A stretch of DNA of 58,766 nt, counting the filler, from Fonticula-like sp. SCN 57-25 (Eukaryota), in NCBI GenBank assembly GCA_001724245.1. It is 2 parts of 2 records of this genome, joined end to end, with 100 filler letters (N's around TTAATTAATTAA, not from the genome) between each part and the next. Parts side by side here need not be neighbours in the genome. Positions count along the whole stretch, not along the records: positions 1 to 29,750 come from MEDX01000050.1; 1 more part is not named here. One strand, given 5' to 3'. The position numbers and the translations under genes are program-made. The notes under the pieces were generated by a model, which saw only the letters and a list, made by a program, of their open reading frames with translations, was not told the origin of the DNA and searched no databases. How positions within the stretch are numbered: position 1 is the stretch's first letter; every line of letters begins with the position of its first letter. Below are positions 4,593-29,750 of the stretch, in pieces.

Positions 4593-6105
4593 TTACTCGT
4601 CGTCCTCCTCATCCTCCTCATCTTCCTCCTCATCGTCGTCCTCCATGGCGTCCTCGTCCTTGGGCGCCTTGGCGGGCCGCACGCGGTTGGCCTGCTTGGC
4701 CTTTTGGCGCGCAGCGAGCTCCTCGGCCGTCGGCTCGACGAGCGTCGTCACCTTGCCGGCGTGCCAGTAGCCGAGCAGCTCAACCTTGAACTCGGCAATG
4801 GGCATCATAAGAAGTTTCTGCCAACGAAAGGTGAGCAAAGGGGGTAAAGAGCCAATCAGAGACGAGAAAAAGTCATATAAAAATGATACCAAAGTGATAC
4901 CAAAGTGAAGCAAAAGTGACACATGGGCAAGCAACGTAATACGTGAGCAAGCAAAAGAGATACACCGCCAATCATAGACACCCAAAAGTGATACACAGCC
5001 AATCAACAACCGCCAAAAAATTCACTTTGCCAATCATGACGTACCAAGATCTGCGCCTGCTCGGGCGTGAGCGCCTGGCCGGGCGTCGCCACCGTGTACG
5101 ACCTGAGGTTCATGACCTTGCCTGCTCAAGTGTCAGTGGCGGTAAAGGAAAGGAAAGAGACGCACCGTTCTTGAGGGCGGTCGTCATGCCGAGCTTGCGG
5201 AGCGTCGGCTCGAGCGTGTGCACCATCGGCTCAAGGCCGGCCATCACTTGGCCTGGGAACGATCGTCAGCATTTGTAGGACGAAGGGCGAAAACAGATAT
5301 GAAAATGAGTACATGTACACACATAAATGTACATGACACGTATGTACATTCATATACAGAGACATACAAACACCTTTACCATACACTCATACCCATACAC
5401 TCACACCCATACACTCATACCCACACCAATACCCATATCAATACTTACACCAATACTCACACCACCACACTATAACCATATACACTCAAAACTTTTCACT
5501 ATTATCGTCATAATTAGCCATGGAAAACGTACCTTCCGGGACGACGATCTCGTCCGAGGGGATGAAGCCCGAGCGGGCGTACTCGGTCTTGACAAACGTG
5601 TCAAAGTAGTCCTGCACCTCGGTGGGCTTGGAGTTGGTCATGAAGAGACCGACCTGGCCGGTGAGGCGCAGCGCAATCTCGTGAAGGTTCTTGTGCTGCT
5701 CGGTCTCGCGCGTGTTGCCGAGCGCGATGCTCATCACGCGGTTCTTGCCCATGAAGAACCTGCAGGAAAGGGTAAGACAGGGCCACGCGGGGGGGAATGG
5801 CGCACCGGCTCGTCTCCCAGTCGGAGCGGACGTCCTTCAGGTGCGCATTGCGCATATTATCGACCGAGAAAACATACACGTACGAGAACTCGTCAAGGGC
5901 AGAGCGGATCTACAGAGCACGGAAAGATCAGCAACAGCGGCCAGTCAGCGGTCAAACATACGTCCTCCATCATGCTGTCCTTGGCGACGCGCCCCTTCTT
6001 CTGGGTCTGCGTCAGCGACACTATAATTGAACGAACGTGTCAGTTATGCGTGTGCGCAAGGGGGAGAGAGGGCGTACCGAGCTTGGAGCGTTTCGACTTT
6101 GGCAT
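4593..6105 (-). CDS. MRT4: Ribosome assembly factor Mrt4 (P0 paralog), multi-exon
   Basis: MPKSKRSK, YVFSVDNMRNAHLKDVR, GKNRVM..ALG, GQVGLFMTN, EPTLRKLGM.T.LKNG, LTPEQAQIL, acidic tail. Confidence 0.93.
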
Positions 6106-7053
6106 GGCGGCGGGTGATGCTCCAGGTGTGGTTCCTCCACGTGCCGCTTGCAAACTGAAATCTGGTTTGCATCGAGCAAAGTGAGATCAGTTTGCGTCAT
6201 GTCAGGGCAGTATGCGGCTTGCTTGCCTATGCGCTCGTGCACCGGGATCAATGCACATGCACGGTGGGCGAGGAATAAGACAATACGACGAGCATGTACA
6301 TAAAGAGCGTGTATAACTACCGAGCATTATTTGACCTTCTTGTATTTTGTGGGCGATCTCACCAAGTCATATCTGCATATTTGAGGCCAAACATACGCTC
6401 ACGAAATAAGCAATGCATAATATATATTCTCAATGTACAATACCGACCTAACATATCAAGCTCTGTTTTATCAAATACGTACAATTGAATACGCGAGCGC
6501 AGCATGCCGTGGCATTCTTGTGATATATTTGTTCGTTGATCTTCATCTTACCAACATGATGTCGACATCAAAAGATCGCCGAGATCGCCAAAAATGACAC
6601 TGCGCATCACCCGCAGCATGTCCTCCCCTCCTTAACACGCACAAACCCGCCGTCGCCCACTCCCTCTGACCTCATCCGCATCATCGCCTATCGATGTCAC
6701 CATCTCGCAACACGTCCCAAAAAGGAAATCTGGGCTACTTTGTACAATGCGCATTTGGGCAGGCCCAAGCGGCCCAATTTGAATTCTCTGCCTCGCGGCG
6801 CGCGCCTCTTTCGTTCCTTTGGGCCGGGCAGCGCCATTTTTGTCTTTCCCTTCGTGCCTCCTGCTTTTCCCTTTCCTTTCGCTGTTTCTCGGCGGTCGAG
6901 TCTCGGTGGTGACTGCAGCGGTACGCTATGCTGACAGGGTGGCACGACGCAACTGCCGCTCTTGCTCTTTTCCCCTCTGCCCGGGGCGCCGGCGGGGCGC
7001 TGACGCGCGCTTTCAGGTAGCGGTTTAGAATTTAGACGACGGCGGTGAGGAGC

Positions 7054-7964
7054 ATGCAGCGGTGCTCAGACGACTGGGACCCAAAGCTCGTCGACTATGG
7101 CGCGGCGGGTACGACTAACAGTGTGGACCGCGTGCGGTGCTGATCTTGGACGCTGACATAATGGTAGGCGAGCTCGGCCGGAAAAATAGCAGCGGCCTCG
7201 AGCTGGAGCGCGACAGTGTCGAGTGGGCGGCGTTCCAGGCCGAGTACGCCGCGCTTCATCCGCCTAGTGACCTCTCCGAGTTTGCGCCCCTCCTGCCGCC
7301 TTTTCGACTGTCGAGCGCCGGAAGCTTGACCGAGACCCTCCAGAGCCCGAGCTTTGAACCTGCCGCCCTCAGCGACGTGCCGGGCCTCGCGCCGGCCGTC
7401 CTGCCGGCGCCGTCCATCTACCCCGGCGGCGAGGCGCCGCACCGCTACGACGGGCACGAGGCCAAGCGCTCGTCGCAGCCGCAGAGCAAGGACGACCAGG
7501 ACTATTCCAGTGACGGCTCGCCTGCCTCGTCGTGGTCACAAAGCGGCGCCTGGAGCGCGTCAGAGTGCGGCGCGGACAGCGGATCGCGCGGGCGGCCGCG
7601 CTCAAGAAAGGAGGCCGTGTTCCGCTCAGGCCGGACGACGCGGCAGACGCGCGGCGGCGCAAGATCGGCGGCCGACATCCCCGGGCGGGCCGAGACTGCC
7701 GTCGGGCGCCTCACGCGAGTCGAGTTTCTGCAGATGATCCAGGGCCTCGAGGAGGAAGAGGCGAACAAGCTGCGCAAGCTGAGGCGGACGCAGCGAAACG
7801 CGCAGTCGCAGCGCGAGTCAAGGCGACTAAAAGCAGAGTTCAAGTCGTGGGTGAGCAGCGACAGCAACAGCAACCGGTCAATAAAGATGAGCGATGCCGA
7901 GGGGCCGTGGCTGAGCAGCATCGCAGAGGACACGGTGCGGGATCGTGACAGATCTATAACATGA
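7054..7964 (+). CDS. Maf/CNC-like basic-region transcription factor with no evident leucine zipper
   Basis: ATG 7054; intron ~7109-7167 joins in frame. LTRVEFLQMIQGLEEEEANKLRKLRRTQRNAQSQRESR has a Maf-like extended homology region and the bZIP N-x7-R signature. Probable 5'UTR intron ~6921-7016. Confidence 0.6.
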
Positions 7965-8644
7965 CTGGGAAGCGGCGACGATCAGCTACTATAAAAAGGG
8001 TCTGCGAGACCCGACAAAGCTACAGCAAACGCCGTTTCTATACACGCTCAAGAGGACAAGAGCATTCATGGTTGCGAAACGAATACGAGGCGTGCGCAAG
8101 GCGACAACATCATGATCGCACAAGAGTGACAAGCAGGAGATCGATTTGGTGTGTCAGCACTGCAAAAGTGCTGAAAAGCATTGAAAGGATAAAAAAATTG
8201 CAATACTTTTTACTATTGTACAGGCTCTGTGAGCATTCGTCTTTCTCCATTATGTATTAATACTACACAGGACTACACTGTAATACACTCAATGCCACTC
8301 TTGCTGTACTAACAAGTGCAAGGTGCTGAATCCATATCTGTATTCCGTAAGATTATGATACGCAATACACATTATGGATAAGCAATACAGGCAAGGGTAC
8401 TTTTAGGACATAAATTAGATACTTTTTCTCATGCACTGGGTACTTTAATGTGTACTTTAACTATAGTATACATTGGTTTTACTTGCTTCACATTGTTATT
8501 ACTTGCTTATGTCTCTACAAGTCACTCAATGCCATCTACTATGCAAAAAAGCACTGCATTATATACTGTATATATACGTCCCTTTACCCCCCCAGGACAC
8601 ATCCTCTAATATCAAAATAATATACAAATCCCACCACTCCCAAT

Positions 8645-11600
8645 CTAATCCAACGGCCTCTCATTCCTAATAATCATCTGCGAATTGCACGCAATCCTCG
8701 TCAACTGCATAAGCACCTCTGCCTGACCCGCCTGCTCCCTCTTGAGCGCCTGACCTGCTTTTGCATGTCTGCTTTCTGCTTCTGCTTCATCAAACAGTTT
8801 TGCGACTGAGCGGACGGTGTGGCGAAGGTCGAGCATGCCACGTGCGTGCTGCTCGGCGGCGGCTTGCGTGCGCCGAAGCAAAGTTGTGTCAGAGCCGACG
8901 AGGAAAAGTGCCGAGGCGAAACGATCGGCTAAAAGTGCGTCTGAATCTGCCCCTGATAATGTGGAATCTGCCCCTGAATCTGGGGACGATGTTTGTGTGT
9001 CTGACCCTGAGAAAAAGGACAAAATGCCAGACGTTTCACCTGATACACTGACACTTCCACTATCAGAATCAGCCCCAGATTCAGCAGAGTCAACCCCTGA
9101 CAAACCGCCCTTTGCCTCCACATCAACCACGTGGCCACATTCACTGCAAACAATTTCGCCGACGCCGCCGACATCGGGCGCGACGACAGCGAGCCCGAGC
9201 GCCATTGCCTCCATGGCGACCAATGGCGTGCCTTCCACACGTGACGTCACCAACAAAATATCATGCTGCTCGGCCACGTGGCGCAGCTCATCCCCCTCGA
9301 GCGACCCTAATAAAGTAACAGAGACGCCCAATGAGCGAATAGCAGCGCGGACGGCGGACTCTTCTGGCCCCGCGCCGATCATTGTGGCGTGCACGGTGAG
9401 CGGCGACGCTGATTGGCGGAGACGGTCGATGAGGGCTGCGATGGCCAATGGGAAGAGAGCAGGGCGTTTTTCTTCCGAGAAGCGGCCGACAAAGAGGATG
9501 CGGAGGGTGGGGGGTGGGAGGGGTGGGCGGGGGGCGGTGCGCGAGAAGGCGTCAACGTCAATGCCAATATGGATTACCTGGAAAGATGGTGAGAAAGAGG
9601 AAAATATAGGGCAAATGTGATGTAAAATACAACACAGATAGCATCAAAACTCATGAAAAGTAACAATATTTATCAGTCATACAAGACAAGGTACAAGCAT
9701 CAGTCATACAAGACAAGGTACAAATTATCAATCATACAATGAAAGTAAAAAGTATATCAATCAGACAACAGAAAGTAAAATATATCAGTCATACAATGTA
9801 AATAATATATCAGTCATACATCACCATCATCAATATACAATATACATCCCATACTACTTTCTTTCCCATCTTCGCACCTTTCCTATCTCTGGATCTGCCC
9901 CATTCTCCACCATCTTCTCCCTCAACGCCCTCGATATATACACACTCTTATCAATATACCCCTGCATCCCAATCGACAGCGTCGTAAACCCGCCATCAAT
10001 CCACTCATCCACCCAATTATGATTCAAATCCACAACGGCGCCCACTGGACAATACCGCGCAATAAACGGCAAAAACAAATATGGCGCCGCCGCATTTGAA
10101 ATAAAAAGCGCGCCAATGTCCCTTGTCCTAACAAGGTAGCAGACAAGCTCGCCGTACACGTGCGCAGGTAAATGACCGTTCGCGACGAAAACGTCATCCT
10201 GCCGCGTGGACGCCCGCCCTCTGCCGAGCCACTCATTCCCGGCGGCGCCAAGCGGCTTTTGCGACAGCAATATGGTGGCGCTCCACGCGTGGTCGGCGCC
10301 AGTGAGGCCCTTGATAATGTCCAGCGCGACCTTGTCGGCGCCGCCAACGACGAGCCACGGCAGTAAAACTAGAATGTTGCGCTTGCGCGTGCCGCCGTCT
10401 TTCCCGCGCGAAACGTCAATGTCGGCGCGGCTGAAGAGCGGCTCAAAGTCGAGCGGCTGGTCGCCACGTGGCAGGGCGGCGGTGGTCCAGAAGGCGCGCG
10501 CGGCGGCGTCCGAGGCGAGGCTACGCTCGAGGCGGCGGTCGCCGACCATGCCGGGGCGCAGCGAGGAAAGGGAATTTAAAAGGGAGCGGGAAGTGGAAGG
10601 GCCGAGCGCGCCGCGGCACGTCGGAAGGGCGTGAAAGGCGCCGTCTGGGGAGAGAAATGCGAGCGGTTCGTTGAGGGAGACGCCCGTGCGGAGGTTAAAG
10701 TGGACGGCAAAGACGAGCTCGACGGGCGCGCAAAAGACGGCGGAGGGGGAGGGGGCGGGGAGGGAAAGGTGGCGGATGGCGTGCGTGGAAAAGAGGACGA
10801 GCGAGTCGGCCGCGTGGGCGAGGTCGAGAAGGGCGGCGGCGGACTCGGAGGGCGTCATTGTAAGGGTGGCGTTTTCGCGCCAAAGGTGGGAAAGGGCGCC
10901 GCCAATGACGACATAGTCGGCGGCAGAGTGCACGCGGAGGAGCCACGCGGCTTTTTCAAAAAGGTTTGGCGCAAATTCGTCGCCGATGCGCAGCACGGTC
11001 AAAAGAAAGCCGCGCGCGCTTTTCTTGGCAGTGTCGAGTTCAAACTTGCGCTGCGCGGATGCGGCATCGTCGGGGGGGCATCGGAGAAGCGTCGCGGCGG
11101 AAAGGGAAAGCTCTTTGGCGGCGACGAGCGCCCATTCTACAAAGGCGTCTTTTGATTGCGTGTGGCGATCGAGCTGGAGGACGACGGTGCGCTCGGCGCA
11201 CCCGCGCGCGATGCGGCCAAAGACTTCGAAGCGGCGGGCGGTGCTGCGCGCAATTGAGAGGGATGTTCGCTGCGCGTCGCGCAATAAAAGTTCCATGTCA
11301 ATTGGCTTGTCGTATGAAAAGAGGGCGGAGAGGACGATTGACACGGCGAGATCCTCGCCGCTGCGCAGCATCGACCGGCGCGCGCCCTGAACGCCATAGT
11401 ATGGATTCTCGTCCAGCCGTGGATCAGAATCATCGCCGCGCGACGCGCCATCGCACGCGGCCTGCACGCCGTCAGCGCCATACGAGCTAAACGCCGCGAG
11501 CTCGCGCTTTACGATCGCGCTCACGGTCGATGCCGTGCCATCGTAGGCGCGATTCAGGCGGACCAGGGCGAGGGTGCCCGCAAAGGCGATAATCACAAAA

Positions 11601-14592: not shown

Positions 14593-17125
14593 ATGGCGGG
14601 CAAGGTGGCGCGCCTCGCGACGTGCTCGCTCAACCAGTGGGCGCTCGACTTTGATGGCAACCTCGCGCGTATTATGCAGAGTATCAGGGAGGCGATCGGT
14701 GGCGGCGCGACGTACCGCATGGGACCCGAGCTCGAGACGAGGTGCGCATTGCCATGGTGGGATGACGTCGTCTAAAGAATGTTACAGTGGGTACGGCTGC
14801 AATGACCACTTTCTCGAGATGGACACGTTCATGCACTCGTGGGAGCTTTTGTGCACCGTTGTGGACGCCTTTCGTGACGATCGCATCCTGATCGACGTTG
14901 GCGCGTACGCGATCGCCCCTGATCATCATGTCCTAACCCATGCGCAGCCCTGTTGTGCACCGCAACATGCGCTACAACTGCCGCGTGCTCATCTTCATGG
15001 GCGAGATCCTCCTCATCCGCCCCAAGATGCAGCTCGCGAATGACGGCAACTACCGCGAGACGCGCTGGTTCTCTGCATGGCAGCGCCCCGGCGCCATCGA
15101 AGACTTTGTTTTCCCGATCGCGTGGGGCACCCCGTCATCGCGCGGGCAGTCGTCCTGCCCCTTTGGCGATGCGGTGATCCAGGCGCACGACGGCTGCATT
15201 GGCTTTGAGATCTGCGAGGAGCTGTTCACGCCCGAGTCTACGAGCACATCCCTCGCGCTCGATGGCGTCGAGATCATCTCGAACGGGAGCGGCAGCCATC
15301 ACGAGCTGCGCAAGCTGCATCGCCGCATGGAGCTCATCATGGGCGCCACTTCAAAGCTCGGCGGCATTTACATGTACGCCAACCAAAAGGGCTGCGACGG
15401 CGAGCGCGTCTACTACGACGGCAGCTCTGTGATCGTGCAGAACGGCTCGGTGCTCTCGCAGGGCGCGCAGTTTTCCATCAAAAACGTCGAGGTCGTCTTT
15501 GCCGACGTGTCGCTCGAGGAGGTGCGCCAGTACAGGGGCGGTAACAGGTCAATGTCCGTGCAGGGGTCGGCGCCGAACCGCATTCGCTTCCCGCGCGTCA
15601 AGGTGGATCTTGTGATCGCGCAGAGATCCATTGAGGATACGCCGCTGACCAAGAAGCGGGCGCCATTTTACCACACGCCAGAGATGGAAATCACGTACGA
15701 AGAATGTTTTTGATATGGAAAGGAAGGGAATATGTGTGTAAATATTGGTTTTTGTGGCCTTTTCGTTGGTTTTTATTGGCATTTTTATGTTTTCTGTGGT
15801 CATTTTCTGTATATAAAGTGCCCAAAAATGTACATTTCCTCTCAATTTATGCACATTTCTGTTGTTTTTTGTACACAAAATTGCACATTTTTTCCCCTTT
15901 CCACTCATCTTCCACCTAGACTTGGCCCCGCCTGCTGGCTCTGGGACTATCTCCGTCGCTCCGGCGCCGCCGGCTTCTTCCTCCCCCTCTCCGGCGGCCT
16001 CGACAGCTGCTCGACCGCCGTCCTCGTGCACTCCATGTCCTCCCTCGTCGTCGACGCCATCCTTTCCGGCGACGCCGACGCCCTTTCCGACGCCCGCCGC
16101 GTCACCGCCGACGCCACTTTTTCGCCCTCGTCCGCCGCCGACCTCACCCGCCGCCTCTTTCACACGTGCTACCTCGGCACTGCCAACTCGAGCGCCGAGA
16201 CACGCGACCGCGCGCGCACGCTGGCCGCCGCGCTCGGCAGCTACCACGTGGACCTCGACATGGACGGCGTCGTCTCCGCCGTGACGTCACTTTTCGCCGC
16301 CGTCACGGGAAAGTCGCCGCAGTTCCGCGCGCACGGCGGCAGCGCTTCCGAGAATTTGGCGCTTCAAAATGTTCAGGCGCGACTTCGAATGGTTTTGTCG
16401 TACATGTTTGCGCAGCTGCTGCCGTGGGTGCGCTCTGACAGGGGCAGGTCGCTGCTCGTGCTGGGCAGCGCCAATGTCGACGAAGGGCTCAGAGGCTACC
16501 TCACAAAGTACGACTGCTCGTCGGCCGACATCAACCCAATTGGTGGAATTAGTAAAACCGACTTGAAATTATTTTTGGGCCACGCCGAAAAGCACTTTGG
16601 GCTGCCGTGCATCGCCACGTTTGTGAATGCGGTGCCGACGGCCGAGCTCGAGCCAATCACAGAGTCGTACAGGCAGACGGACGAGGCGGATATGGGCATG
16701 ACATATGACGAGCTGAGCGCGTTTGGAAGGGCGAGAAAGATTGACGGAAATGGGCCGGTTTCCATGTTTTGGAACTTGGTCGACAAGTGGCGCGAGACGG
16801 CGTCGCCGGCGGTCGTGGCAGAGAAAGTGAAAAGGTTTTTTTATTATTATGCGATTAATAGGCATAAAATGACGACAATTACGCCGTCGTATCATGCAGA
16901 GTCGTACAGTCCGGATGATAACCGCTTTGATATGAGGCCTTTTCTCTACAATGGTACGAAGGTATTTTGGTTTGAATGGCAATTGACGATGGATGTTATT
17001 GTTTAGCCACGTGGTCGTATCAGTTTGGGCGTATTGACGAGGCGGTGGAGAGGCTGGCGAAGCGCGCGCGCGCAGCGGAAGAGGACGAGACGGCGCAATT
17101 GGATGCCAATAAGCGTAGAAAGTGA
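14593..17125 (+). CDS. NADSYN1: Glutamine-dependent NAD+ synthetase
   Basis: [91 protein letters not shown]. Confidence 0.97.
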
Positions 17126-18835: not shown

Positions 18836-21028
18836 ATGATGTTGTCGGTCATGGGTGGGCGATGGCTGCGGCGCGGCCGATTAATAGGCCTGCTTTTCAC
18901 AGTTCTGCTGCTCGCGGCCAGCTCTGCTGCTCAAATGAATGAAACAATGACGGAAGTCTATGAAGCGGCGCCTGTTGACGGCGAGTGGATCGTCCAATTG
19001 AAGGGGTACTATCCCCATGCCAAGCACGCTGCTCTGCTGCAGCGGTCATTCGATAGTGCGCTGCTGACCCTCTTTGCTTGAAAGGTTTTCTGATGAATTA
19101 TTGCCGTTTTTAGAAGCGCAGTCGGTGCGGTGGTCGGTCCTTTCGCGCGACAATCCCGCTTCATCTCTCCCAAGCGACTTTGTCCTCTTGTCAATCACTG
19201 GCGACGATGCCGCGGTGACGCATTCGCTCGATGCACTCACATCGAATCGCTACGTCAAGAGCGTCTCTGCGCAGCGCCACGTGCGCCGCACACTCAAGTC
19301 GACCGTTTGGTGTACGTACTTTTCTTTTTTCCCTTCTTTTGATCCCCTTTTCCCTTTCTCATGCCTTCTCTTTAGCGCATCCCGGCCGCACACTCCGCCG
19401 CCTGGATCCCCTCACATCATCCCTCCTCTCCTCGGACGCCGCCGCCTCCTCCACCTCCCAGACGCCCATCACGACCATCCTCGACGCCGATCACCTCTGG
19501 TCTCAAGGCTTCACCGGCCAAGGCGTCCGCGTGGCCGTCTTTGACACTGGCATCCGATCCGGCCATCCGCACTTTCGGAATCTGCGCGAGCGCACAGACT
19601 GGACCGCGCAGCAGTTTCTTGACGACAATATTGGACATGGAACGTTCGTGGCGGGGATTATTGCGAGCTCGGCGGAATGTTTGGGGTTTGCGCCGGATGC
19701 GGAGCTGTACTCGTTTAGGGTGTTTACGGATGATCAGGTGTCATATACGTCATGGTTTTTGGACGCTTTCAACTATGCAATTCACCGCAAGTGCGTCATA
19801 TAGTATTTTTTGTGATAATGTGTGATAATGTGTGTGAAAATGATGTTTTTTGTGAGAATATTGATAGTACTTTTGTGACATGGTACTTTACGGCCCTTTG
19901 AATGTCACTGAACATGGTACATGTGTATGACAATATGATACTTTTCATATGTTTTTACCCATGTTTCTGTTCATTTTCTACTCATTTTTCATTCATTTTC
20001 TACTCTTTTTCACTTCTTTTAACTTCTTCCTTCAAAGGGTTCACATCATCAATTTGAGCATTGGCGGACCCGACTTTATGGACCGCCCCTTTGTCGACAA
20101 AGTATCCGAACTCTCCGCCAACAACATCATCATGGTCAGCGCCATCGGTACGCCATTGGCCACTTCCACGTGACCCCCCACGTGGCCCCTCACACCATCC
20201 AATAGGAAACGACGGCCCCACTTATGGCACGCTCAACAACCCCGCCGACCAAATGGACGTCATCGGCGTCGGCGGCATCGACCACGCCGACAAATTAGGT
20301 ACTAAAACTTTTTCTTTTGCTTCTGATTGGCCCATTTTGACACTAAAAATACCACCCAATCAGCGCCCTTCTCCTCCCGCGGCATGACCACGTGGGAAAT
20401 CCCCGACGGCTACGGCCGCGTCAAGCCCGACATTGTCGCCTATGGCGTCGGCGTCCCCGGCTCGCGCATCTATGGCGGCTGCCGCGTCTTATCGGGCACA
20501 TCAGTGGCATCGCCCGTTGTGGCAGGTGTACTTGCCTTATTAAGTAGTGTTGTTCCCGAAAAGGAAAGAGCACGAAAAGTGAATCCGGCCAGTATTAAGC
20601 AGGCGATTGTTGGGACGGGTGTTAGGCTGAAGGAGGGTAATATATTTGAGCAGGGGTTTGGGAGGGTTAATTTGAGGGGGGCGTATGAGTGGCTGAGGGG
20701 GTATGAGGTGATGGCGAGTGTCATTCCGGGTGAGCTTGATCTGACGGATTGGTACGGGGTGGAAGGGGGGGGGGAGGGGGGTAGAGGGAATAGTGGGTAT
20801 AGGGCGTATGTGTATGGGTGAATATCATATGGTGAATGTAGTAATTTGTGTATGTGGTGTATCATGTGTATCATGTGTGAGTGTGTATGTATATCATTGT
20901 ATGTATATGTGTGTGTGTGTGTGTGTGAGTATCATTGTGTGTATCATGTCAGGGTATGAGTCTGGGGTGGATTATGGATAGTGTGTGTATGTGTATATGT
21001 GTGTATATGTGTATGTATGTATGTATGT

Positions 21029-21068
<40 letters not shown>

Positions 21069-24000
21069 ATGAGTATATTGTATGTGTATGTATGAGTATG
21101 TGTGTGTGTGTGTGTGTGTGAGTATCATTGTGTGTGTGTGTATGTATGTGTGTATATGTTTGGTAAATGTGTCTGTCAATGTTATGAAAGTAGTCTTGTG
21201 AGTACCTTGTGAATGTCTTGTACATGTCTTATGACTATACATGTCTTGTTGTGACCATACATGACTATACATGTATTGTTATCCCATACATGTCATTCCC
21301 TACACATGTCATGATGTCATACATGTCTTTGTCATGTCTTTCCCTCTACCTATCTCTCCTTTTCTTCATCTCTACTAATCATCACTACAGCCCCTACATG
21401 TGGCCCTACTGCACCCAGCCCCTCTACTTCTCCGCCATCCCAATCATCATCAACACAACCATCCTCAACGCACACTCTCCCTCTGGCACCATCCTCTCCC
21501 CTCCTATATTCACACCTACAAACACATTAGGAAGTCATTTAAATGTGCGGTTTACATATTCAAGAGTGTTGTGGCCTTATACTGGGTATTTGGCGGTGCA
21601 TATTTCTGTGTTGCAAACTGGTTTGCATGTTGAGGGGGTGGCAGAGGGGAAAGTGGTGTTGGAAGTGGGCGGGAGAAGTGGCGGGAAAAGTGGCGGGAAA
21701 GATGGGAAGAATATGAAAAGTGGCGGGAAAGATGGCGGGAAAGATGGGAAAAGTGGTGAAAAAGGGGCTGAAAGTACAGTTATAACTGTCCCGATTCGTG
21801 TGAAAATCATACCAATGCCACCGCGTGAAAAGCGCGTCCTATGGGACCAATTCCATAACCTAAGGTACCCCCCCGGCTACTTTCCCATTGACGCAATGCA
21901 CCCACAAGACCGCGCGAGCCCACTCGACTGGCACGGCGATCATATTCATACCAATTTTAATGGAATGTATGATCACTTGAGGGGCATGGGATACTTTGTT
22001 GAGGTGCTTGGTGGGCCGTTTACGTGTTTTGATGGTGGGGCGTATGCGACGCTCATCATCGCTGACCCGGAAGAGGTACGAATGGGAGGGAAGTAAAGGG
22101 AAGGGTAAGGGAAGGTGATAGGGAAAGCATATATAATGGTGGTGTAATGATGGTAAAAGTATAGATAGTGGTGGTAATATGATGGTAAAAGTATAGATAA
22201 TGATGGTAATATGATAGTAAAAGTATAGTGTTTAATATGGATATGGTGGTAATAGGATAGTATTCAATAGCGAAATGGTAGTAAAAGTATGGTAAATGAT
22301 ACTTGATCTATAGTATTTAATAGTGAAATGACACATACTTTGTTACTTACACTTTCCCTTTAGGAATTCTTCCCTGAAGAGATTGCCAAACTACAAGACG
22401 ACATTAGTACACGTGGCCTCAGCATACTCGTCATCGGTGATTGGTACAACGCTGACCTCATGCACGTACGCAATGCTGACACACTGTTTGATCACATGAT
22501 CACATTTGCTGACTCATCATTTGACTCTTTTTTTTCACATTTGCTGACACACCATTTTCATATTTAGAAAAAGCGCTTTTTTGATAATAATACGAGGCAG
22601 TGGTGGACGCCCCACATGGCCGGCGCAAACATTCCCGCCCTCAACACTTTACTATCACCGTATGCAAACTGCAAACTGATTGACTATATGCAAACTGCAA
22701 ACTGACACATTATTGGTTCATTTTAGGTATGGAATTCAGTTTGGCGATCGTTCCTTTTCCGGCACTGTTTCAATCCCGATCGACCAAAAAGACTCTTTTA
22801 AGACCCTTTTATATGACTCTGGCACATCAATAGTCGCTTTCCCGCCAACTGGAATTGTCCTATCAGTGCCATTAGTGGATGACAATATAAGAGAGTTGAA
22901 TGGGGCGCAGATCACGGTGGATGCCGTGCCTGTGGTCGGTTTGTACCAGACTGAAGAGTGGGGTGGGAGGATTGCAGTGATGGGCGATTCGAATTGCTTG
23001 GATAGCAGTTTATTTAAAGATACGGTACGAATATATATGGGATAGGAAAGGGGTATTAGATAGATAGAATGGGTGTATATTGATATATTGATATATTTTT
23101 ATCTCTTGTTGTGTGTATTGATATATATTTATCTCTTGTTGTGTGTGCATTGATATATTTTTATCTCTTATTGTGTGTAGAGTGATATATTTTTATCTCT
23201 TATAGTGTGTGTGTATCATTATTTTTGTCTCTTGTTGTGTGTATATATGGTGCTTTTACCTCTTATTGAATGTGTATTGATATATTTTTATCTCGTATTG
23301 AGTGTATATATCATACCTTTTGTATGTATTTATCTTACTTTTACCTCTTCTTGTGTGTATAATTCGATATTTTTTCTATCTCTTCTTGTGTATGTATCAT
23401 GTTACTTTTACCTCTTCTCACGTTCCTTTTCCTATACTTTTCCCCCTATCTAACTTTTCTTCCCTTAGCCCTGCTTCTGGCTTCTCGACATGCTCCTCTC
23501 CTACACCAACCACCACCTCATCGACCGCCTCTTCGCCTCCCGCGGCACACCCATGTCCCCTTCCCTCCTCGCAAACGCCGCCCCGCCGCTTCCCCCCGTG
23601 CCGTCCGTCGAATTTGCCATGCTCTCAAAGGTGCTTTCACACAAGCTTCCCTCATGTTCACTTGGCTCCATTTCCTATTTTGGTAATTCCGGCAATTCGT
23701 CATCCAAATTGGGTATGGGCTCATCATGGTCATCAGATGGTTACTCAGATGGATCATGGTCATCAGATGGTTCATGGTCATCAGATGGATCATGGTCATC
23801 AGATGGATCTTCATGGTCATCAGGGACGGAATCGTCATTGGGTTCGGGCGGAGCGCCGCCATTGGCCAATGCGAATGACGAAGCTGATCCGGATTCGATC
23901 GCGATCGATCGTTTGTTTGCGTCTGCGGTGCGATCGGGGCCGCATGTGTCGCAGGTGGGGCCGCGGCCGGAGGATGCGGATGAGGGGGGGGTGTACACGT

Positions 24001-24164: not shown

Positions 24165-24498
24165 GAGTAGAGTTTTGTGTATGTATGTATATGTGTTAAT
24201 AGAATTAGTTTTATGAATGGGGTGAGAGGTATGGTTCAATAGGCTATCAAAGGTGATATTATGAAAGATTTAAGGCATATTCTATGACAATCAAGTACAT
24301 TATGTTGCACATTACAATCATATAGGCTGTCTGATATGAACAAAATACGTCATATATCACGATTCATATCTCATGTATCATGTATCATATCTCGTGTATC
24401 ATGTATAATGTATCATGTATCATGAATCATGTATCATGTATCATATTCATCTTCATCTTCATATTTATTTTATTTTTGTTTCATGCCATACATCACTT

Positions 24499-25375: not shown

Positions 25376-25891
25376 GTCGGAGGCGATGCGCAGCGATGAC
25401 TCAACAACGTAATGGGGGATGAGATTTGACCTACCTTAAAAGTGGCCAGAGTAGATCAGAATCTGCTACACGGTAGGCGAGCAGCAGCTTCAAATATGCG
25501 CAAGTATCTTTTATCAGTACTACAGGCAATGTAAATGGCTTAATACATAGCATGCAATAATGGCTTTTCTCTCACACACAATTATGTCGTTTTTTTTCTT
25601 ATTATTAGATACAGTTTGACCTTTCGGCAACTGTGCTAATATTTCCATGCCGTTCATCGTACACAACTCTATATCAACGCAAACAGTCACATAAGCACAT
25701 TCTCTATGTCATAACTTACATAAAATGTACCTTTTTTCTCTACTTTAAAGTACGCATTCCAGCACGAGACCGTTTAATTCTCATATTACGCACTCCTGAC
25801 TCTTATCGATCAAAATCGTCCGTTATAGTCGGTTTGAATCCGACCTTCTTTTTTTTTGTTGTTTCCCTCTCCCCTTGCCCGTCGTCGAAAG

Positions 25892-28800
25892 ATGCGGTTC
25901 CTGGGCGTGGCGGTGCTGGTGCTGGCCCTAGGCCTCGCCGCACACGTCGACGCTGTGGACAGGGTTCGTCAGCTTACTTCTTTTTTCCTTTATTTTTGTG
26001 CTCACATTTTCGCCTTTTCTTTCCCTTTTTTCCCTTTCCCTTTCCCCAGAAAAACTTCAAGACGTGCGATCAGAGCGGCTTTTGCCGCCGCAACCGCCGC
26101 CTTGCCGACAACCCGCCGGCGGCGTACCACCTTGTCCCCGACACTGTCAACGTTCAACTCGAAGACGCCGCTGTGAATGCGCAGCTCGTCAACCCCGCCA
26201 CCAAGGTCCTTTACAACCTCGAAGTCTTTGTCGCCGATGGCACTGCGCGCGTCGTCATTGACGAGGCGTCGCCCATTCGCCCTCGCTACCGCGTGCAGGA
26301 CGTCATTGTCGGCACCTGGACACCCGCCACTGCCACCATCGACACTGTGGACGACAAGACGACCATTTCCTTTGGCAGCGACGCCGAGCTCAAGGTCGTC
26401 CTCACGCATGCGCCCTTCCGCATCGACTTTTTCCGCAAGGACGACCTCGTCATGTCGCTCAACTCGCGCGGCCTCTTCAACATGGAACACCAGCGCATCA
26501 AAGTACGTCATTTTTTAGGGAAATTTGCAGTCCTTTTCTGACCCTTTTTTGTGCCTTTTTTCACAGAATGCCGCTGGCGATGCCGTTCAGCAGCAAGAAG
26601 AAGCCGATGGCATGTGGGCCGAGACCTTTAAATCGCACGAGGACAAGAAGCCCTTTGGCCCCGCCGCGATCAGCCTCGACATTTCCTTTGCCGATTTCCA
26701 GCATGTCTACGGCATCCCCGAGCACGCCACCTCCCTCGCCTTAAAGTCCACGAAAGGATCCGAGCCGTACCGCCTGTACAACCTCGACGTCTTTGAATAC
26801 GAGCTCGACAACCCGATGGCCCTCTACGGCAGCATCCCCTTTATGACGGCCCACTCTGCCAAGCACACTGTCGGCGTATTCTGGCTCAACGCGGCCGAAA
26901 TGTTTGTCGACGTGGACGTGATCGCCGGCTCGTCCGGCTTCATGGGCATTGGCAGCTCTTCTGAGCGTGTCGACACGCACTGGATTGCCGAGACTGGCAT
27001 TGTCGATGCGTACTTTTTCTTTGGCCCGACACCGCAAAAAGTAATCCAGCAGTACACTGCACTGACTGGCACGACAGCGCTGCCGCAGTCATTTGCGATT
27101 GCGTATCATCAGTGCAGATGGAATTATAATGATGAGGCTGATGTTGCTGCGGTTGATGCCGGCTTTGATGAGCATGATATTCCGTATGATGTGCTGTGGT
27201 TGGATATTGAGCATACGGAGGAGAAAAAGTATTTTACGTGGGATAAGATAAAGTTTCCGAATCCGGTTGCTATGCAGGAGGCAATCGCCGCAAAGCATCG
27301 CAAGGTAAGTGGAAGGAAATTGGATATGAAATTGGAAAGATAATGCTAACAAATGATGTTTTTTGTTGTTTATTTACTGTTTGTGTGTTTCTTTTGTGCT
27401 TTTTTATGATTGTTATAATGATTGTTATTATGATTGTTTTTGTTGCTTTTTTGTACTTTTTCCTACTTTTCCCTACTTTTTACTCTTCTTTCTTCTATCT
27501 GCCTTCTGCCCTCTTCTGCAGATGGTGACGATTGTGGACCCGCACATTAAGCGCGTGTCGTCGTATCACGTGCATGACCAGGCCGAGTCGTGGGGTTACT
27601 TTGTCAAGGATGCCGACAAGAAGGACTTTGAGGGATGGTGTTGGCCTGGTACGACTTAATGCGAAGGGTTTATTGTGGTTTGTAAGGGTTATTTGGTAGG
27701 GTTAGTGCACTTAGGGTTAGGTGTTAGGGTTATTTGTTATGGTACATGGTTCATTGTTAGGGTTTCATGTTCATTGTTATGGTACATGGTACTTTTGTAT
27801 GGTACATGGTACATGGTTATGATACATTGTCATGGTCCAACATCATGGTACATGGTACTTTGTTACGATATACTGTTGTGGCACATGGTACATGGTACAT
27901 TGTTATGGCACATAGTACTTTGATATGGTTATTTGTTATGGTTCATTGTACAGTGTTATGGTTCATTGTACTTTGTCATGGTACATGGTTCATTGTTATG
28001 GTCCTATATTATGGTGCATGGTTCATTGTTATGGCCCTATAGTTTGTTTTATGGTGCATTATAATGGTACATTGTCATAGTACATGGTTCATTGTCATGG
28101 TACATTGTCCATTGTTATGATACTTTCTCATGTTACTTGTCCTATAAATTACACCTTTTCTCCTTCTTCTCTCTTCCCCTACTAACCCTCCCTCCCTCTT
28201 CTTCTCTCTAGGCTCCTCCAGCTGGATTGACTACTTCAACCCCGACGCCTCCAAATGGTGGTCCCACAAATTCCTCACCACCGACTACCTCTTCTCCACC
28301 CCCACTCTCTTCACCTGGAACGACATGAACGAACCTTCTGTCTTTAACGGCCCAGAAGTCACAATGCCCAAACATAACCTTCACTATAACAATGCTCATA
28401 ATGGTCATAATGATGGTCATAATGATGGCCATAATGGTCATAATGATGCTGTTGATCATAATGGTCATCTTGATTATGTTGAGCATAGGGAAGTGCATAA
28501 TATGTATGGCATGATGCAGCACAAGGCCACGTTTGAAGGTCACGTGCTCAGGGATGAAGCGCGTCCATTTGTGCTTTCCCGCGCATTCTTTGCCGGCTCA
28601 CAGCGCTACGGGCCAGTATGGACAGGTGACAATACGGCCACGTGGGCACATTTGAAGGCATCAGTGCCCATGTTGTTGTCTTTGGGTGTTGCTGGTCAGA
28701 CGTTTAGTGGCGCTGATGTTGGCGGCTTTTTCGGCAATCCCGATGGTGAATTGCTGACACGTTGGTATCAAATGGCGGCGTTTCAGCCTTTCTTTAGGGG

Positions 28801-29750
28801 TCATAGTCATATTGAGACGCGGAGGAGGGAGCCGTGGAGTAAGGGAGAGCCGTGGACGAGTGCGATTAGGGGGGCGATTAGGGCGAGGTATCAGTTGTTG
28901 CCGTATTGGTATACGCTGTTTCATGATGCGTACTTGACGGGGGCGCCCACAATGCGGTACGTAGTAGGGGAAGGAAGTTTAATATGGGGTTATTTGGGGG
29001 TAGAAGGGTGTAATTTGAGAGTAATTTGAGGGTAATTTATGGGTAATTTGAGAGTAATTTGTGCTCATTTTGTGTTCATTTTGTGTTCATTTTGTGTTCA
29101 TTTCAAATTCATATTGGGTTCATGTCAAATTCAATTTGGGTCCATGTCAAATTCAATTTGGGTATTTTTGAGCCCAATTTGAATTCGTTTTCAATTCAAT
29201 TTGGGTCATTCGTGTGTCTTTGTTGTGTCTACATTGCGTCCATTTTGTGTTGTTTTTTCTCTCTTTTTCTCTCTTTTTCTTCTCTTTTTCCACTCTTACC
29301 TCCCCTTTTCCACTTTCCACTCACCCTCGTTCCTTCCCTTCCTCCTCCCCCCCAGCCCGATGTGGTACGAGTTCCCCTCTGACCCCCACACCTTTTCCCT
29401 CGACGACCAATTCATGGTCGGCCCCTCCATCCTCGTCAAGCCCGTCACCGACCCCTCCTTGTCCTCCCTCGACGTCTACCTCCCCTCTGGCTCCTCCTGG
29501 TACGGCCCCTCTTCCTTTACCCGCATTCCCGGCGGCCAAACCATCACTGTCAATGTCACCCTCGACGCCATCCCGACCTTCTTCCGCGCCGGGTCAATTA
29601 TCGTCAGGCGCGATCGCGTTCGCCGATCGTCGTCGATCATGCAAAAAGACCCGTACACTTTGATGGTATTTTTGGATGAAAAGTATAGTGCACGCGGGGA
29701 GTTGTACTATGATGATGGGGCGACGTATGGGTATAGGGAGGGGGGGGGGG
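25892..29750 (+). CDS. GANAB: Glucosidase II alpha subunit (GH31), truncated by the gap
   Basis: Signal peptide, NFKTCDQSGFCRRNR, YRLYNLDVFEY, YHQCRWNY, WLDIEHT, catalytic WNDMNEPSVF, WTGDN, GADVGGFFGNP. Confidence 0.97.
27735..28120. repeat. Degenerate minisatellite (GGTACAT / GGTTCATTGTTAT units) in GANAB intron 27649-28211
   Basis: Repeated ATGGTACATGG and GGTTCATTGT units. Confidence 0.85.

What the first reader, a model, noticed from the sequence alone, without database searches (positions are those of the whole stretch)
4820..29355. Long introns have complementary G-rich 5' and C-rich 3' ends, and the skew reshapes flanking codons: possible fold-back long-intron definition system
Seen: most introns here are 45-90 nt, but MRT4, GT4, NADSYN1, S1P and GANAB have 200-640 nt introns filled with low-complexity repeats. 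Most start G/purine-rich and end C/pyrimidine-rich, with complementary blocks. GGTAGAGGGAA 20780-20790 pairs exactly with TTCCCTCTACC 21340-21350. GGGAAGGAA 28968-28976 pairs with TTCCTTCCC 29330-29338. AGGGTTAGT 27698-27706 pairs with ACTAACCCT 28181-28189. In GT4 intron 9578-9877, AAGATGG-GAAAGA pairs with TCTTTC-TCA-CCATCTT. The bias extends 100-200 nt into exons: synonymous positions turn G/T before the donor (20600-20751, 28800-28956) and C after the acceptor (15920-16150, 21391-21520, 29356-29590). Inference A: the pre-mRNA folds back to bring distant splice sites to a short-intron distance, analogous to (AC)/(GT) bridging repeats in fish introns. Inference B: a DNA-level, strand-symmetric mutational process (see next finding). 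Purine/pyrimidine matches can also arise by chance.
Basis: partly seen in the sequence, partly recalled or inferred. Interest (0 to 1): 0.75.

Follow-up and report, generated by a model that had tools for sequence, protein, structure and literature searches.

The report
Skewed DNA around long repeat-filled introns
In an unidentified microbial eukaryote, every long intron is an AT-rich repeat island with G-rich DNA before it and C-rich DNA after it, reaching into the coding sequence; this looks more like a local mutation footprint than a dedicated RNA fold-back device.

Summary
The composition claim holds. All 11 long introns I could define (217-639 nt, five genes) have a G-rich, C-poor 5' third and a C-rich, G-poor 3' third. 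The skew runs 100-250 nt into exons. Third codon positions are G 0.59 / C 0.08 at 51-100 nt before these introns and C 0.77 / G 0.06 after them. Eleven curated short introns show no such polarity.

The quoted complementary blocks exist but are about what this composition gives. Native 5'/3' ends pair no better than swapped ends (-39.1 vs -38.0 kcal/mol, p = 0.31). Predicted folds do have many end-to-end pairs, but gradient-preserving shuffles have as many. Spliced mRNA at these junctions is not unusually stable.

At synonymous sites the upstream flank has lost C and A, and the downstream flank G and T. This mirrors the strand asymmetry published for resected DNA beside meiotic breaks. Non-intronic AT-rich islands show the same polarity more weakly (7 of 8).

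My best reading (0.45) is a DNA-level, island-centred, strand-symmetric mutational footprint, with end complementarity as a by-product. Selected RNA bridging stays possible (0.2). One window cannot settle it: no genome, RNA data or close relative was available.

The parts
4818..5044 (-). MRT4 long intron A (227 nt). GT/CT-rich tandem repeats. Weak G-to-C polarity and no exon skew.
   Evidence: Spliced frame. Composition. Repeats. D = 0.13.
5253..5532 (-). MRT4 long intron B (280 nt, donor GTACGT). C-rich only in the last ~65 nt. Flanking exons are not skewed.
   Evidence: Sequence read..
9578..9877 (-). GT4 long intron (300 nt) with a 27-28-nt tandem array. Holds the imperfect AAGATGG-GAAAGA / TCTTTC-TCA-CCATCTT pairing.
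   Evidence: D = 0.98.
15695..15919 (+). NADSYN1 long intron (225 nt). The downstream exon 15920-16150 has C 0.81 at third codon positions.
19791..20037 (+). S1P intron 3 (247 nt).
   Evidence: A related strain differs in length here.
20557..21253 (+). G-rich, C-poor domain spanning the S1P exon end (20557-20751) and the 5' part of intron 6. It crosses the donor at 20752 without a break.
   Evidence: Cumulative G-C minimum and maximum. Third positions. Sequence.
20752..21390 (+). S1P intron 6 (639 nt) with a (TGTA/TGTGTGTA)n array. Holds the 11-nt block 20780-20790 / 21340-21350.
   Evidence: The interior 20775-21164 is not spanned by public contigs.
21254..21525 (+). C-rich, G-poor domain spanning the 3' part of intron 6 and the first ~135 nt of the next exon. 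It ends in a sharp C-to-G switch near 21528.
22076..22363 (+). S1P intron 7 (288 nt) with 32-nt repeats.
23025..23468 (+). S1P intron 10 (444 nt) with a 32-nt array of 7 copies.
27305..27521 (+). GANAB long intron a (217 nt).
27649..28211 (+). GANAB long intron b (563 nt) with a 20/33-nt array. The 5' arm has TTAGGG-like units. The quoted 3' block ACTAACCCT overlaps a TACTAAC branch-site-like motif.
   Evidence: Confirmed by a second assembly.
28957..29355 (+). GANAB long intron c (399 nt). Holds the 9-nt block 28968-28976 / 29330-29338.
28609..29658 (+). Paired skew domain around GANAB intron c. The G-rich exon end is followed, after the intron, by a C-rich exon start.
24167..24497 (.). Non-intronic AT-rich island between the convergent S1P stop (24164) and the end of a PDI-like gene (24502). 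Skew is +0.46 in the first half and -0.29 in the second. The S1P 3' coding end has third-position skew +0.69. The PDI-like side does not follow.
8150..8664 (.). Non-intronic AT-rich island between a + strand gene (ORF ends 7961) and the GT4 end (8648). D = 0.39.
25498..25828 (.). AT-rich island in the divergent promoter region of a PDI-like gene and GANAB. The GANAB 5' coding part to its right has third-position skew -0.51.

Best explanation
The long introns are AT-rich minisatellite islands. Around such an island, the DNA strand whose 3' end points toward the island has lost C and A. The + strand is therefore G/T-rich to the left and C/A-rich to the right, whichever strand the gene is on.

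I read this as the equilibrium footprint of repeated single-strand exposure of that strand. Two routes fit the sign and the scale. One is 5'-to-3' resection of breaks that arise in the repeats. The other is the lagging-strand template of forks stalled at the repeats. In both, cytosine and adenine damage would be fixed as C>T, C>G and A>G. The same instability would expand the repeats and so lengthen the introns.

On this reading, the complementarity of the intron ends and of the flanking exons is a by-product of strand symmetry. It does bias predicted pre-mRNA folds toward end-to-end pairing, and the cell may tolerate or even use that, but it was not built stem by stem.

Shown here: the composition pattern, its extent, its spectrum at synonymous sites, the lack of partner specificity, and the weaker presence at non-intronic islands. 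Inferred: that the cause is mutational, and that single-strand exposure at breaks or stalled forks is the process.
For: 1. The skew domains cross splice sites. One G-rich domain runs 20557-21253 across the donor at 20752. The C-rich domain runs 21254-21525 across the acceptor at 21390.

2. Synonymous sites are nearly saturated. C is 0.02-0.04 at third positions in 20600-20751 and 28800-28956, and G is 0.07-0.11 downstream. Weak selection on about 50 individually marginal sites is an unlikely cause. That last step is a population-genetic inference.

3. Both transition classes shift in mirror fashion.
- Two-fold C/T sites have C fraction 0.23 upstream, 0.52 far and 0.81 downstream (n = 134, 689, 124).
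- Two-fold A/G sites have G fraction 0.90, 0.64 and 0.35 (n = 89, 379, 26).
- Four-fold sites have G 0.62, 0.28, 0.08 and C 0.15, 0.45, 0.72.
- So C and A are lost upstream, and G and T downstream.
- Passages of PMC7615360 report the same sign and mutation types beside human meiotic breaks: single-stranded DNA to the left on the forward strand, C>N and A>N there, the mirror on the other side, with C>G, A>G and C>T named.

4. There is no motif-level order in the exons. GGG occurs 58 times against 59.5 expected from synonymous-codon permutation, and CCC 75 times against 77.6.

5. Conserved protein positions are not eroded. The window departs from the GANAB consensus at 14 of 84 upstream-flank, 14 of 76 downstream-flank and 55 of 298 far columns.

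6. Pairing is generic and adds no stability. Spliced 240-nt windows at 9 long-intron junctions fold at -73.0 kcal/mol, against -80.1 for 107 background windows.

7. The polarity is not confined to introns.
- The left-minus-right skew D is positive at 7 of 8 non-intronic AT-rich islands. The mean is 0.28, and 4 of 8 exceed the 99th percentile (0.35) of 3481 random placements.
- Coding third positions within 400 nt of intergenic islands lose C on the left (C fraction 0.46 against 0.65 elsewhere) and G on the right (G fraction 0.35 against 0.69).

8. Short introns lack the pattern. In 11 curated short introns, the pooled inner 5' half has G 0.17 and C 0.27. 55 pattern-predicted short introns have flank skews of -0.07 to -0.02.

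9. Islands, repeats and skew switches cluster together in the first 30 kb. That covers 23 of 24 islands, 46 of 47 repeat rows and 18 of 18 strong switches.

10. Intron lengths differ between strains.
Against: 1. Inside the introns, the A/T component does not mirror. The sense strand is T-rich in both arms. AT skew is about -0.3 in the 5' bins and -0.45 in the last 80 nt. A strand-symmetric process predicts A-rich 3' arms. Selection for a polypyrimidine tract is only an excuse for the last tens of bases.

2. The G-to-C switch lies 33-164 nt from the 3' splice site, at 0.36-0.89 of intron length with a median near 0.68. It is not at the island centre. That looks anchored to the transcript.

3. 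At four-fold sites, only G and C exchange. A and T do not shift.

4. Both MRT4 introns have the intronic gradient but no exon skew.

5. Coding ends next to intergenic islands are mixed. Of 8, 4 go clearly in the predicted direction (S1P 3' +0.69, NADSYN1 3' +0.54, GANAB 5' -0.51, bZIP-like 3' +0.19). Two are near zero. Two are weakly opposite (METTL16-like 3' -0.11, PDI-like -0.17). Most intergenic cases are 3' ends, so a separate transcript-level rule could mimic them.

6. G-rich coding repeats at 21600-21780 and 17500-17750 give skew without an island.

7. Because the polarity is strand-symmetric, all intronic data fit an RNA-level cause equally well.

8. No breaks, forks or polymorphism spectra were observed. 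Only one 58.8-kb window was available.

9. From recall, not a call: budding yeast has stable hotspots but no reported skew of this size.
Confidence: 0.45

Rival explanations
1. Selected RNA bridging. G/U-rich sequence at and before the 5' splice site pairs with C-rich sequence at and after the 3' splice site. This loops out the long repeat-filled intron and presents the splice sites at short-intron distance to a spliceosome tuned to 45-90-nt introns.
For: - 11 of 11 long introns have the polarity, and 11 curated short introns do not.
- 5'x3' arm duplexes average -38.1 kcal/mol, against -25.7 for 5'x5' and -12.1 for 3'x3'.
- Folds have 9-80 pairs between the 5' and 3' thirds, against 8-18 after a full shuffle. 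The predicted donor-to-branch-region distance is 1-36 in the native folds, against means of 21-32 after a full shuffle.
- Arms depleted of C or of G cannot fold on themselves, so pairing is forced to be long-range.
- The switch lies within 33-164 nt of the 3' splice site.
- Precedents exist. Fish (AC)m-(GT)n introns are described in the abstract of PMC4691745. Human introns with G triplets at the 5' end and C triplets at the 3' end are described in its section 10.
Against: - There is no partner specificity: native -39.1 against swapped -38.0 kcal/mol, p = 0.31.
- Native folds match gradient-preserving shuffles in long-range pairs and in distance.
- The longest complementary blocks are near chance.
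- The U-rich 5' arms face U-rich, A-poor 3' arms, so only the G:C part is complementary.
- Exon flanks pair no better than ordinary exon sequence: -63.3 against -65.0 kcal/mol.
- Near-saturation of about 50 synonymous sites per flank is hard to hold by selection on a diffuse helix.
- Non-intronic islands show the same sign although their arms lie in different transcripts.
- MRT4 splices 227- and 280-nt introns without exon skew.
Confidence: 0.2
2. Splicing-signal composition read by proteins rather than by RNA pairing. G-rich or G/U-rich enhancers would sit at and upstream of the 5' splice site. An extended C/U tract and C/A-rich exonic enhancers would sit at and after the 3' splice site. C depletion after the donor would also remove decoy branch sites, and G depletion before the acceptor would remove decoy donors. 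All of this would be needed only when the intron is long.
For: - The polarity is specific to long introns.
- T-richness follows the sense strand in both arms, and the C-rich part is confined to the last ~80-160 nt.
- GGG is mildly enriched in the 5' arms: 46 observed against 34.2 expected, P = 0.035.
- From recall, not a call: G-triplet intronic enhancers and A/C-rich exonic enhancers are known in vertebrates. PMC4691745 section 10 calls G triplets previously identified enhancer signals.
Against: - Exon flanks show no clustering of G or C runs beyond codon composition.
- The 5' arms are full of donor-like GTATGT and GTGTGT units, the opposite of decoy avoidance.
- Avoiding C or G does not explain the gain of G at A/G sites upstream or of C at C/T sites downstream.
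- Non-intronic islands share the sign.
Confidence: 0.15
3. Two unrelated things that happen to sit together. Slippage expands whatever lies near each intron end, G/T-rich after the donor and C/T-rich before the acceptor. The exon skews would then be local codon or protein peculiarities or chance.
For: - All long introns are tandem arrays.
- The 3' arms resemble short introns in composition, with C>G and T-rich sequence.
- There is no shared element family among the long introns.
Against: - Short introns are not G-rich or C-poor after the donor. G is 0.17 and C 0.27. So there is no G/T-rich seed to expand.
- The exon skew is consistent at 9 junctions in 4 genes and sits at synonymous sites.
- It lies far outside the null. 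D has sd 0.17 for random placements, and intronic D has mean 0.65.
Confidence: 0.05

Closest known systems
(AC)m-(GT)n bridging introns of teleost fish (Lin et al. 2016, PMC4691745; abstract and section 10 read)
   Same: Simple-repeat expansions sit at opposite ends of an intron, and their compositions are complementary. Predicted structure bridges the splice sites.
   Different: - Here 0 of 11 introns have AC repeats. The arms are G/T-rich against C/T-rich, so only G:C is complementary.
- Stability does not exceed gradient-preserving shuffles.
- The skew runs 100-250 nt into coding exons, which that abstract does not describe.
- No functional data exist here.
- Supplemental Table 3 of that paper, which lists other G/C-rich repeat combinations, could not be seen.
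Human structured introns with G triplets at the 5' end and C triplets at the 3' end (PMC4691745, section 10)
   Same: The polarity is the same: G-rich start and C-rich end. The paper also found only a marginal stability gain over shuffles (-113.85 against -111.47).
   Different: The paper's criterion is at least 3 G triplets in the first 40 nt and at least 3 C triplets in the last 40 nt. It is met by 0 of 11 introns here. Here the bias covers hundreds of bases and the exons.
Strand-asymmetric mutagenesis beside meiotic double-strand breaks in human hotspots (Hinch et al. 2023, PMC7615360; passages read)
   Same: - The sign and spectrum match. C and A are lost on the strand that is single-stranded after resection (left of the break on the forward strand), with the mirror on the right. 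C>G, A>G and C>T are named.
- The abstract also reports strongly raised indel and structural-variant rates, which fits repeat-filled centres.
   Different: - That is a de novo mutation excess over about 2 kb in short-lived hotspots. It is not an equilibrium skew of +-0.6-0.85 at third positions over 150-700 nt.
- Breaks are unobserved here.
- Intron A/T skew does not mirror.
Yeast long-intron stems that bring the 5' splice site near the branch point (Goguel and Rosbash 1993 and others, seen only as citations in the introduction of PMC4691745)
   Same: Intramolecular pairing shortens the effective length of unusually long introns in an organism whose introns are mostly short.
   Different: From recall, those are specific complementary segments. 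Here pairing is not partner-specific.
Strand compositional asymmetry of vertebrate mitochondrial DNA and strand-coordinated mutation clusters at resected breaks (both recalled; no call)
   Same: Long single-strand exposure makes the exposed strand lose C and A. Clusters switch from C- to G-coordinated across a break.
   Different: Those are either whole-genome gradients or somatic, experimental events. Neither is an array of sub-kilobase domains centred on nuclear introns.

Membership tests
(AC)m-(GT)n bridging introns | Complementary AC and GT dimer repeats co-occur at opposite boundaries of the intron | tested here: not met
   (AC)>=3 is found in 0 of 11 5' arms and 0 of 11 3' arms. (GT)>=3 is found in 4 of 11 5' arms and 1 of 11 3' arms.
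(AC)m-(GT)n bridging introns | A highly stable predicted structure forms across the intron, beyond shuffled controls | tested here: inconclusive
   Native folds are lower in energy than mononucleotide shuffles in 9 of 11 introns (z from -5.4 to +1.1). These shuffles do not keep dinucleotides or repeats. Long-range pair counts equal those of gradient-preserving shuffles.
(AC)m-(GT)n bridging introns | The repeats are required for correct splice-site pairing, and splicing is independent of U2AF2 | not testable with these tools
   No RNA data, no organism in culture.
GGG/CCC structured introns (human) | At least 3 G triplets in the first 40 nt and at least 3 C triplets in the last 40 nt | tested here: not met
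   0 of 11 introns meet both. S1P intron 6 has 4 and 0, S1P intron 7 has 5 and 1, GANAB intron b has 2 and 4, and GANAB intron c has 2 and 3.
Partner-specific intron stems (yeast type) | The native 5' and 3' segments are complementary to each other more than to the ends of other introns | tested here: not met
   Native -39.1 against swapped -38.0 kcal/mol, permutation p = 0.31. Swapped partners equal or beat the native block length in 34 of 110 comparisons.
Break-associated single-strand DNA mutational asymmetry | C and A are lost on the strand with its 3' end toward the centre, with the mirror image on the other side | tested here: met
   This is tested as equilibrium composition at synonymous sites. 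C fraction at C/T sites is 0.23, 0.52 and 0.81 (upstream, far, downstream). G fraction at A/G sites is 0.90, 0.64 and 0.35. It is not met for the A/T skew of the intron arms.
Break-associated single-strand DNA mutational asymmetry | The pattern is tied to the DNA feature, not to a transcript, so it is present at non-intronic centres | tested here: inconclusive
   D is positive at 7 of 8 non-intronic islands, and 4 of 8 exceed the 99th percentile of the null. Of 8 coding ends, 4 follow, 2 are neutral and 2 are weakly opposite.
Break-associated single-strand DNA mutational asymmetry | Breaks or long-lived single strands actually occur at the centres | not testable with these tools
   The only indirect hints are the tandem arrays and the length differences between strains.
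Introner or MITE-type mobile introns with terminal inverted repeats | Copies share a sequence family | tested here: not met
   All-against-all blastn of the 11 introns gave one 16-nt match, reported in both directions. An alignment of that pair shows no wider homology.

The most novel reading that the evidence does not exclude
An uncultured opisthokont-like eukaryote carries a genome-shaping, kataegis-like process. AT-rich minisatellite islands, mostly inside introns, act as persistent break or fork-stall sites. The single-stranded flanks are mutated so strongly that they lose C and A. As a result, codon usage, and at variable positions the amino-acid choice, is set over 150-700 nt on each side by position relative to the island. 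Intron length and pre-mRNA fold-back potential are by-products. This would be the first natural case in which break-associated strand asymmetry reaches compositional equilibrium and dictates gene architecture.
Probability: 0.3. Interest if true: 0.8.

Novelty: new variant of a known kind. Interest (0 to 1): 0.6.

Why it matters
If the footprint is mutational, these introns would give a readable, equilibrium-level record of single-strand DNA damage around recurrent breaks or stalled forks. That record would include the tract lengths and the mutation spectrum, in an organism that has never been cultured. It would also link minisatellite growth, intron lengthening and codon usage in a single mechanism.

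If instead the arms are selected, it would be a third, independent invention of structure-assisted definition of long introns, and one that recruits coding sequence.

Either way, the window warns that complementary intron ends can arise from strand-symmetric composition alone. Native-versus-swapped and gradient-preserving controls are therefore needed before a bridging structure is claimed.

Tried and rejected
- **Whole genome:** The test was done on the 11 long introns of the window only.
- **RNA evidence:** no RNA holder was listed among 16 runs. Intron boundaries therefore rest on frames and consensus.
- **Laid contigs:**
  - X2 and X3 are the same data at low depth.
  - X4 is a related strain, but only 40 of 270 differences were shown, too few to polarise a spectrum in the flanks.
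- **Relatives:** the one metagenome scan gave one near-identical contig (L001) and 79 loci at 61% amino-acid identity or less.
  - Only 20 putative introns were found in those 79 loci, and only 1 is 200 nt or longer. No comparative or covariation test was possible.
- **Taxonomy:**
  - The atlas search gave nothing useful.
  - The best GANAB hits are 60-65% identical to animals and Mortierellomycota. The organism stays unplaced.
- **Hidden intronic RNAs:** there were 0 Rfam matches at gathering score in 4000-30000.
- **Mobile-element origin:** no shared family was found.
- **Simple cytosine deamination (C>T only):** rejected as the sole cause. G rises at four-fold and A/G sites, and T does not rise at four-fold sites.
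- **Replication-origin or divergent-transcription asymmetry:** rejected on sign. This rests on reasoning from strand geometry, not on a call.
- **Erosion of conserved residues by the skew:** not seen.
- **Stable hairpins in the mature mRNA from the exon flanks:** not seen.
- **Domain-length analysis:** the lengths were 166-700 nt and capped by the search window, so they were uninformative about the anchor point.
- **Technical failures:**
  - The first literature query timed out. A narrower one found nothing on this pattern. That single search does not show that the pattern is unpublished.
  - Script one search hit the time limit and was rerun.
- **Verbose explorations:** searches were superseded.

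Full report
**What the window is**

The window is a 58.8-kb scaffold of a eukaryote assembled from a metagenome.
- It has two 44-N gaps, at 29751-29794 and 29807-29850.
- One public run holds 96% of the sampled words of 19500-29450. Two identical low-depth data sets hold the same strain, and one aquatic run holds a related strain. No RNA run was listed.
- The best protein matches of a GANAB exon are only 60-65% identical, to animals and Mortierellomycota. The organism is an unplaced, opisthokont-like lineage.
- Introns are mostly about 45-70 nt, with GT[AG]CG[TC]-type donors and CT[AG]A[CT] branch-like motifs.

**Gene models**

I built spliced open reading frames for several genes.
- S1P has 11 exons and 1099 codons, with the stop at 24162-24164.
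- GANAB, GT4 and NADSYN1 were modelled in part.
- The two MRT4 long introns were defined.
- I also placed a METTL16-like single ORF (17238-18791, - strand), a PDI-like gene (- strand, ending at 24502) and a bZIP-like ORF (7119-7961).

This gives 11 long introns of 217-639 nt. These models rest on frames, splice consensus and my recollection of conserved protein motifs, not on RNA.

**Check of the observation**

- The three exact block pairs are reverse complements, and the GT4 imperfect pairing is present.
- In 11 of 11 long introns the 5' third is G-rich and C-poor, and the 3' third is C-rich and G-poor.
- Pooled along the introns, C is 0.03-0.07 for the first ~170 nt. It rises to 0.22-0.37 only in the last 80 nt, where G falls to 0.07-0.10.
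- All long introns are tandem arrays with periods of 4-36 nt. 46 of 47 Tandem Repeats Finder rows of the window lie in 4603-29297.

The exon effect is strong.
- Third positions 51-100 nt upstream of long introns are G 0.59, T 0.29, C 0.08, A 0.04.
- Third positions 51-100 nt downstream are C 0.77, G 0.06, A 0.09, T 0.08.
- Positions 1 and 2 shift as well. For example, G at position 2 is 0.10-0.12 downstream, against 0.20-0.21 far away.
- Codon families switch. Arginine is AGG in 15 of 25 codons upstream and CGC in 10 of 12 downstream. Serine is TCC in 27 of 44 codons downstream. Leucine is TTG or CTG upstream and CTC downstream.
- Proline plus serine make up 21.8% of residues downstream, against 9.0% upstream.
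- Conserved GANAB columns are no more often altered in the flanks: 14 of 84, 14 of 76 and 55 of 298.

Short introns do not show any of this.
- Eleven curated short introns have G 0.17 and C 0.27 in their inner 5' half.
- 55 pattern-predicted short introns have flank skews between -0.07 and -0.02. These are unverified, and at least three of them lie inside other features.

**Is the complementarity more than composition?**

- Duplex energy of the first 100 nt against the last 100 nt is -39.1 kcal/mol for native pairs and -38.0 (sd 13.2) for the 110 swapped pairs. The permutation p is 0.31.
- Against separately shuffled arms, z ranges from -2.05 to +0.97.
- The longest perfect Watson-Crick block is 6-11 nt, against block-shuffle means of 5.6-8.0 nt. 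Three of 11 introns have P <= 0.025, namely MRT4-A, S1P intron 6 and S1P intron 7. Two of 11 have P > 0.9. Swapped partners equal or beat the native block in 34 of 110 cases.
- One quoted block, ACTAACCCT, overlaps a TACTAAC branch-site-like motif.

So there are no partner-specific stems. The compositions are nevertheless generically complementary: 5'x3' arms average -38.1, 5'x5' -25.7 and 3'x3' -12.1 kcal/mol.

In minimum-energy folds, the native introns have 9-80 pairs between their 5' and 3' thirds. After a full shuffle they have 8-18. After shuffling within 40-nt blocks, which keeps the gradient, they have 16-64. Total energies of full and block shuffles are alike. The gradient therefore re-routes pairing from local to long-range without making the RNA more stable.

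The same holds for exons.
- Spliced 240-nt windows at 9 long-intron junctions fold at -73.0 kcal/mol, against -80.1 for 107 background windows.
- Upstream-by-downstream duplexes are -63.3 against -65.0 kcal/mol.

**What kind of bias is it?**

Synonymous sites, split by class, show a mirror pattern.

| Site class | Upstream | Far | Downstream |
|---|---|---|---|
| C fraction at two-fold C/T sites | 0.23 | 0.52 | 0.81 |
| G fraction at two-fold A/G sites | 0.90 | 0.64 | 0.35 |
| G at four-fold sites | 0.62 | 0.28 | 0.08 |
| C at four-fold sites | 0.15 | 0.45 | 0.72 |

- This is not mere avoidance of C or of G. C and A are lost upstream, and G and T downstream.
- G runs and C runs in the exon flanks are no more clustered than synonymous-codon permutation predicts: 58 against 59.5, and 75 against 77.6. 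The bias acts site by site.
- The domains ignore splice sites. One G-rich domain runs 20557-21253 across the donor at 20752, and the C-rich domain 21254-21525 crosses the acceptor at 21390.
- Passages of Hinch et al. 2023 (PMC7615360) describe the same sign and types beside human meiotic breaks. After resection, the forward strand is single-stranded to the left of the break. The flanks carry C>N and A>N there and the mirror on the other side. C>G, A>G and C>T are named. Indel and structural-variant rates are strongly raised.

**Is it tied to introns or to the DNA feature?**

- 23 of 24 AT-rich islands (GC < 0.42 over at least 120 nt) lie in the first 30 kb.
- All 18 strong skew switches lie between 5317 and 29659.
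- No 250-nt bin beyond 30 kb exceeds |0.27|.
- The left-minus-right skew D is positive at 11 of 11 intronic islands, with mean 0.65. It is positive at 7 of 8 non-intronic islands, with mean 0.28. Four of those 8 exceed the 99th percentile (0.35) of 3481 random placements.
- Coding third positions within 400 nt of intergenic islands, and more than 300 nt from any long intron, lose C on the left (0.46 against 0.65) and G on the right (0.35 against 0.69).
- Taken one by one, the picture is mixed. S1P 3' (+0.69), NADSYN1 3' (+0.54), GANAB 5' (-0.51) and bZIP-like 3' (+0.19) follow. GT4 5' and GT4 3' are near zero. METTL16-like 3' (-0.11) and PDI-like (-0.17) go weakly the other way.
- Two 5' ends without an AT-rich island, S1P and METTL16-like, are not C-rich.

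**Against a purely strand-symmetric DNA process**

- The sense strand is T-rich in both intron arms. AT skew is about -0.3 near the 5' end and -0.45 in the last 80 nt.
- The switch lies 33-164 nt from the 3' splice site rather than mid-island.
- A and T do not shift at four-fold sites.
- The MRT4 introns lack exon skew.
- G-rich coding repeats create skew without any island.

Because a G-left, C-right pattern reads the same on both strands, gene orientation cannot discriminate the two readings.

**Verdict**

- The compositional observation is real and striking. The quoted stems are not evidence of designed pairing.
- I favour, at 0.45, an island-centred mutational footprint of single-strand exposure, from resected breaks or from stalled forks at the minisatellites. 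On that reading, intron lengthening and fold-back potential are by-products.
- Selected generic RNA bridging gets 0.2, protein-read splicing composition 0.15 and coincidence 0.05. The remainder is unassigned.
- The closest published systems are the fish (AC)m-(GT)n introns and the human GGG/CCC introns (PMC4691745; abstract and section 10 read). Their defining features are not met here. On the DNA side, the closest is break-associated strand asymmetry (PMC7615360; passages read). Its sign and spectrum are met at synonymous sites, but breaks are unobserved.
- I found nothing in print on this exact pattern. That rests on one completed search, so it is weak evidence of novelty.
- Supplements were closed. 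Supplemental Table 3 of PMC4691745 may list related G/C-rich repeat combinations.

Noticed in passing
window 21600-21780 and 17500-17750: Two unrelated genes carry similar G-rich, in-frame low-complexity coding inserts. S1P on the + strand reads [14 protein letters not shown]..., and the METTL16-like gene on the - strand reads GGKEGEMGGKCGEKDGEMGGK.... Each makes a skew domain without an AT-rich island.
   Followed up: partly
window 28380-28490: An in-frame His/Asn/Gly/Asp-rich tandem repeat (HNGHNDGHNDGHNGHND...) sits inside the GANAB catalytic-domain exon. It is AT-rich, with 12-27-nt periods.
   Followed up: no
window 27690-27740: The 5' arm of the 563-nt GANAB intron holds several TTAGGG-like units (agggttag, ttagggtta), the common telomere repeat motif. 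The name of the motif is from recall.
   Followed up: no
window 22662-22704: About 40 nt at S1P intron 9 (CAAACTG-type repeat) has summed contig depth 240-290, against about 13 for its surroundings. Many contigs there run on into unlike sequence. It is a short repeat shared with many other contigs or organisms.
   Followed up: no
window 29751-29850 and 30000-58766: Long introns, AT-rich islands (23 of 24), tandem repeats (46 of 47 rows) and strong skew switches (18 of 18) all lie left of the N gaps. The right half has the same splice consensus but none of these. This could be a regional difference along the chromosome or a scaffold join between unlike regions.
   Followed up: partly
window 19838-19853 and 27351-27366: An identical 16-nt stretch (AAATGATGTTTTTTGT) lies at almost the same offset from the donor (48 and 47 nt) in S1P intron 3 and GANAB intron a. 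The rest of the two introns does not align.
   Followed up: yes
window 19929-20032, 23360-23402, 27704-27774: Contigs of a related strain (X4, a few per cent divergent) differ in length inside three long introns. They skip 102, 41 and 69 nt, and the last two carry 6 and 34 replacement letters. The arrays are unstable between strains.
   Followed up: partly
window 17126-17237: The NADSYN1 stop and the stop of the convergent METTL16-like ORF are only about 110 nt apart, so the two 3' ends must overlap or be very short.
   Followed up: no
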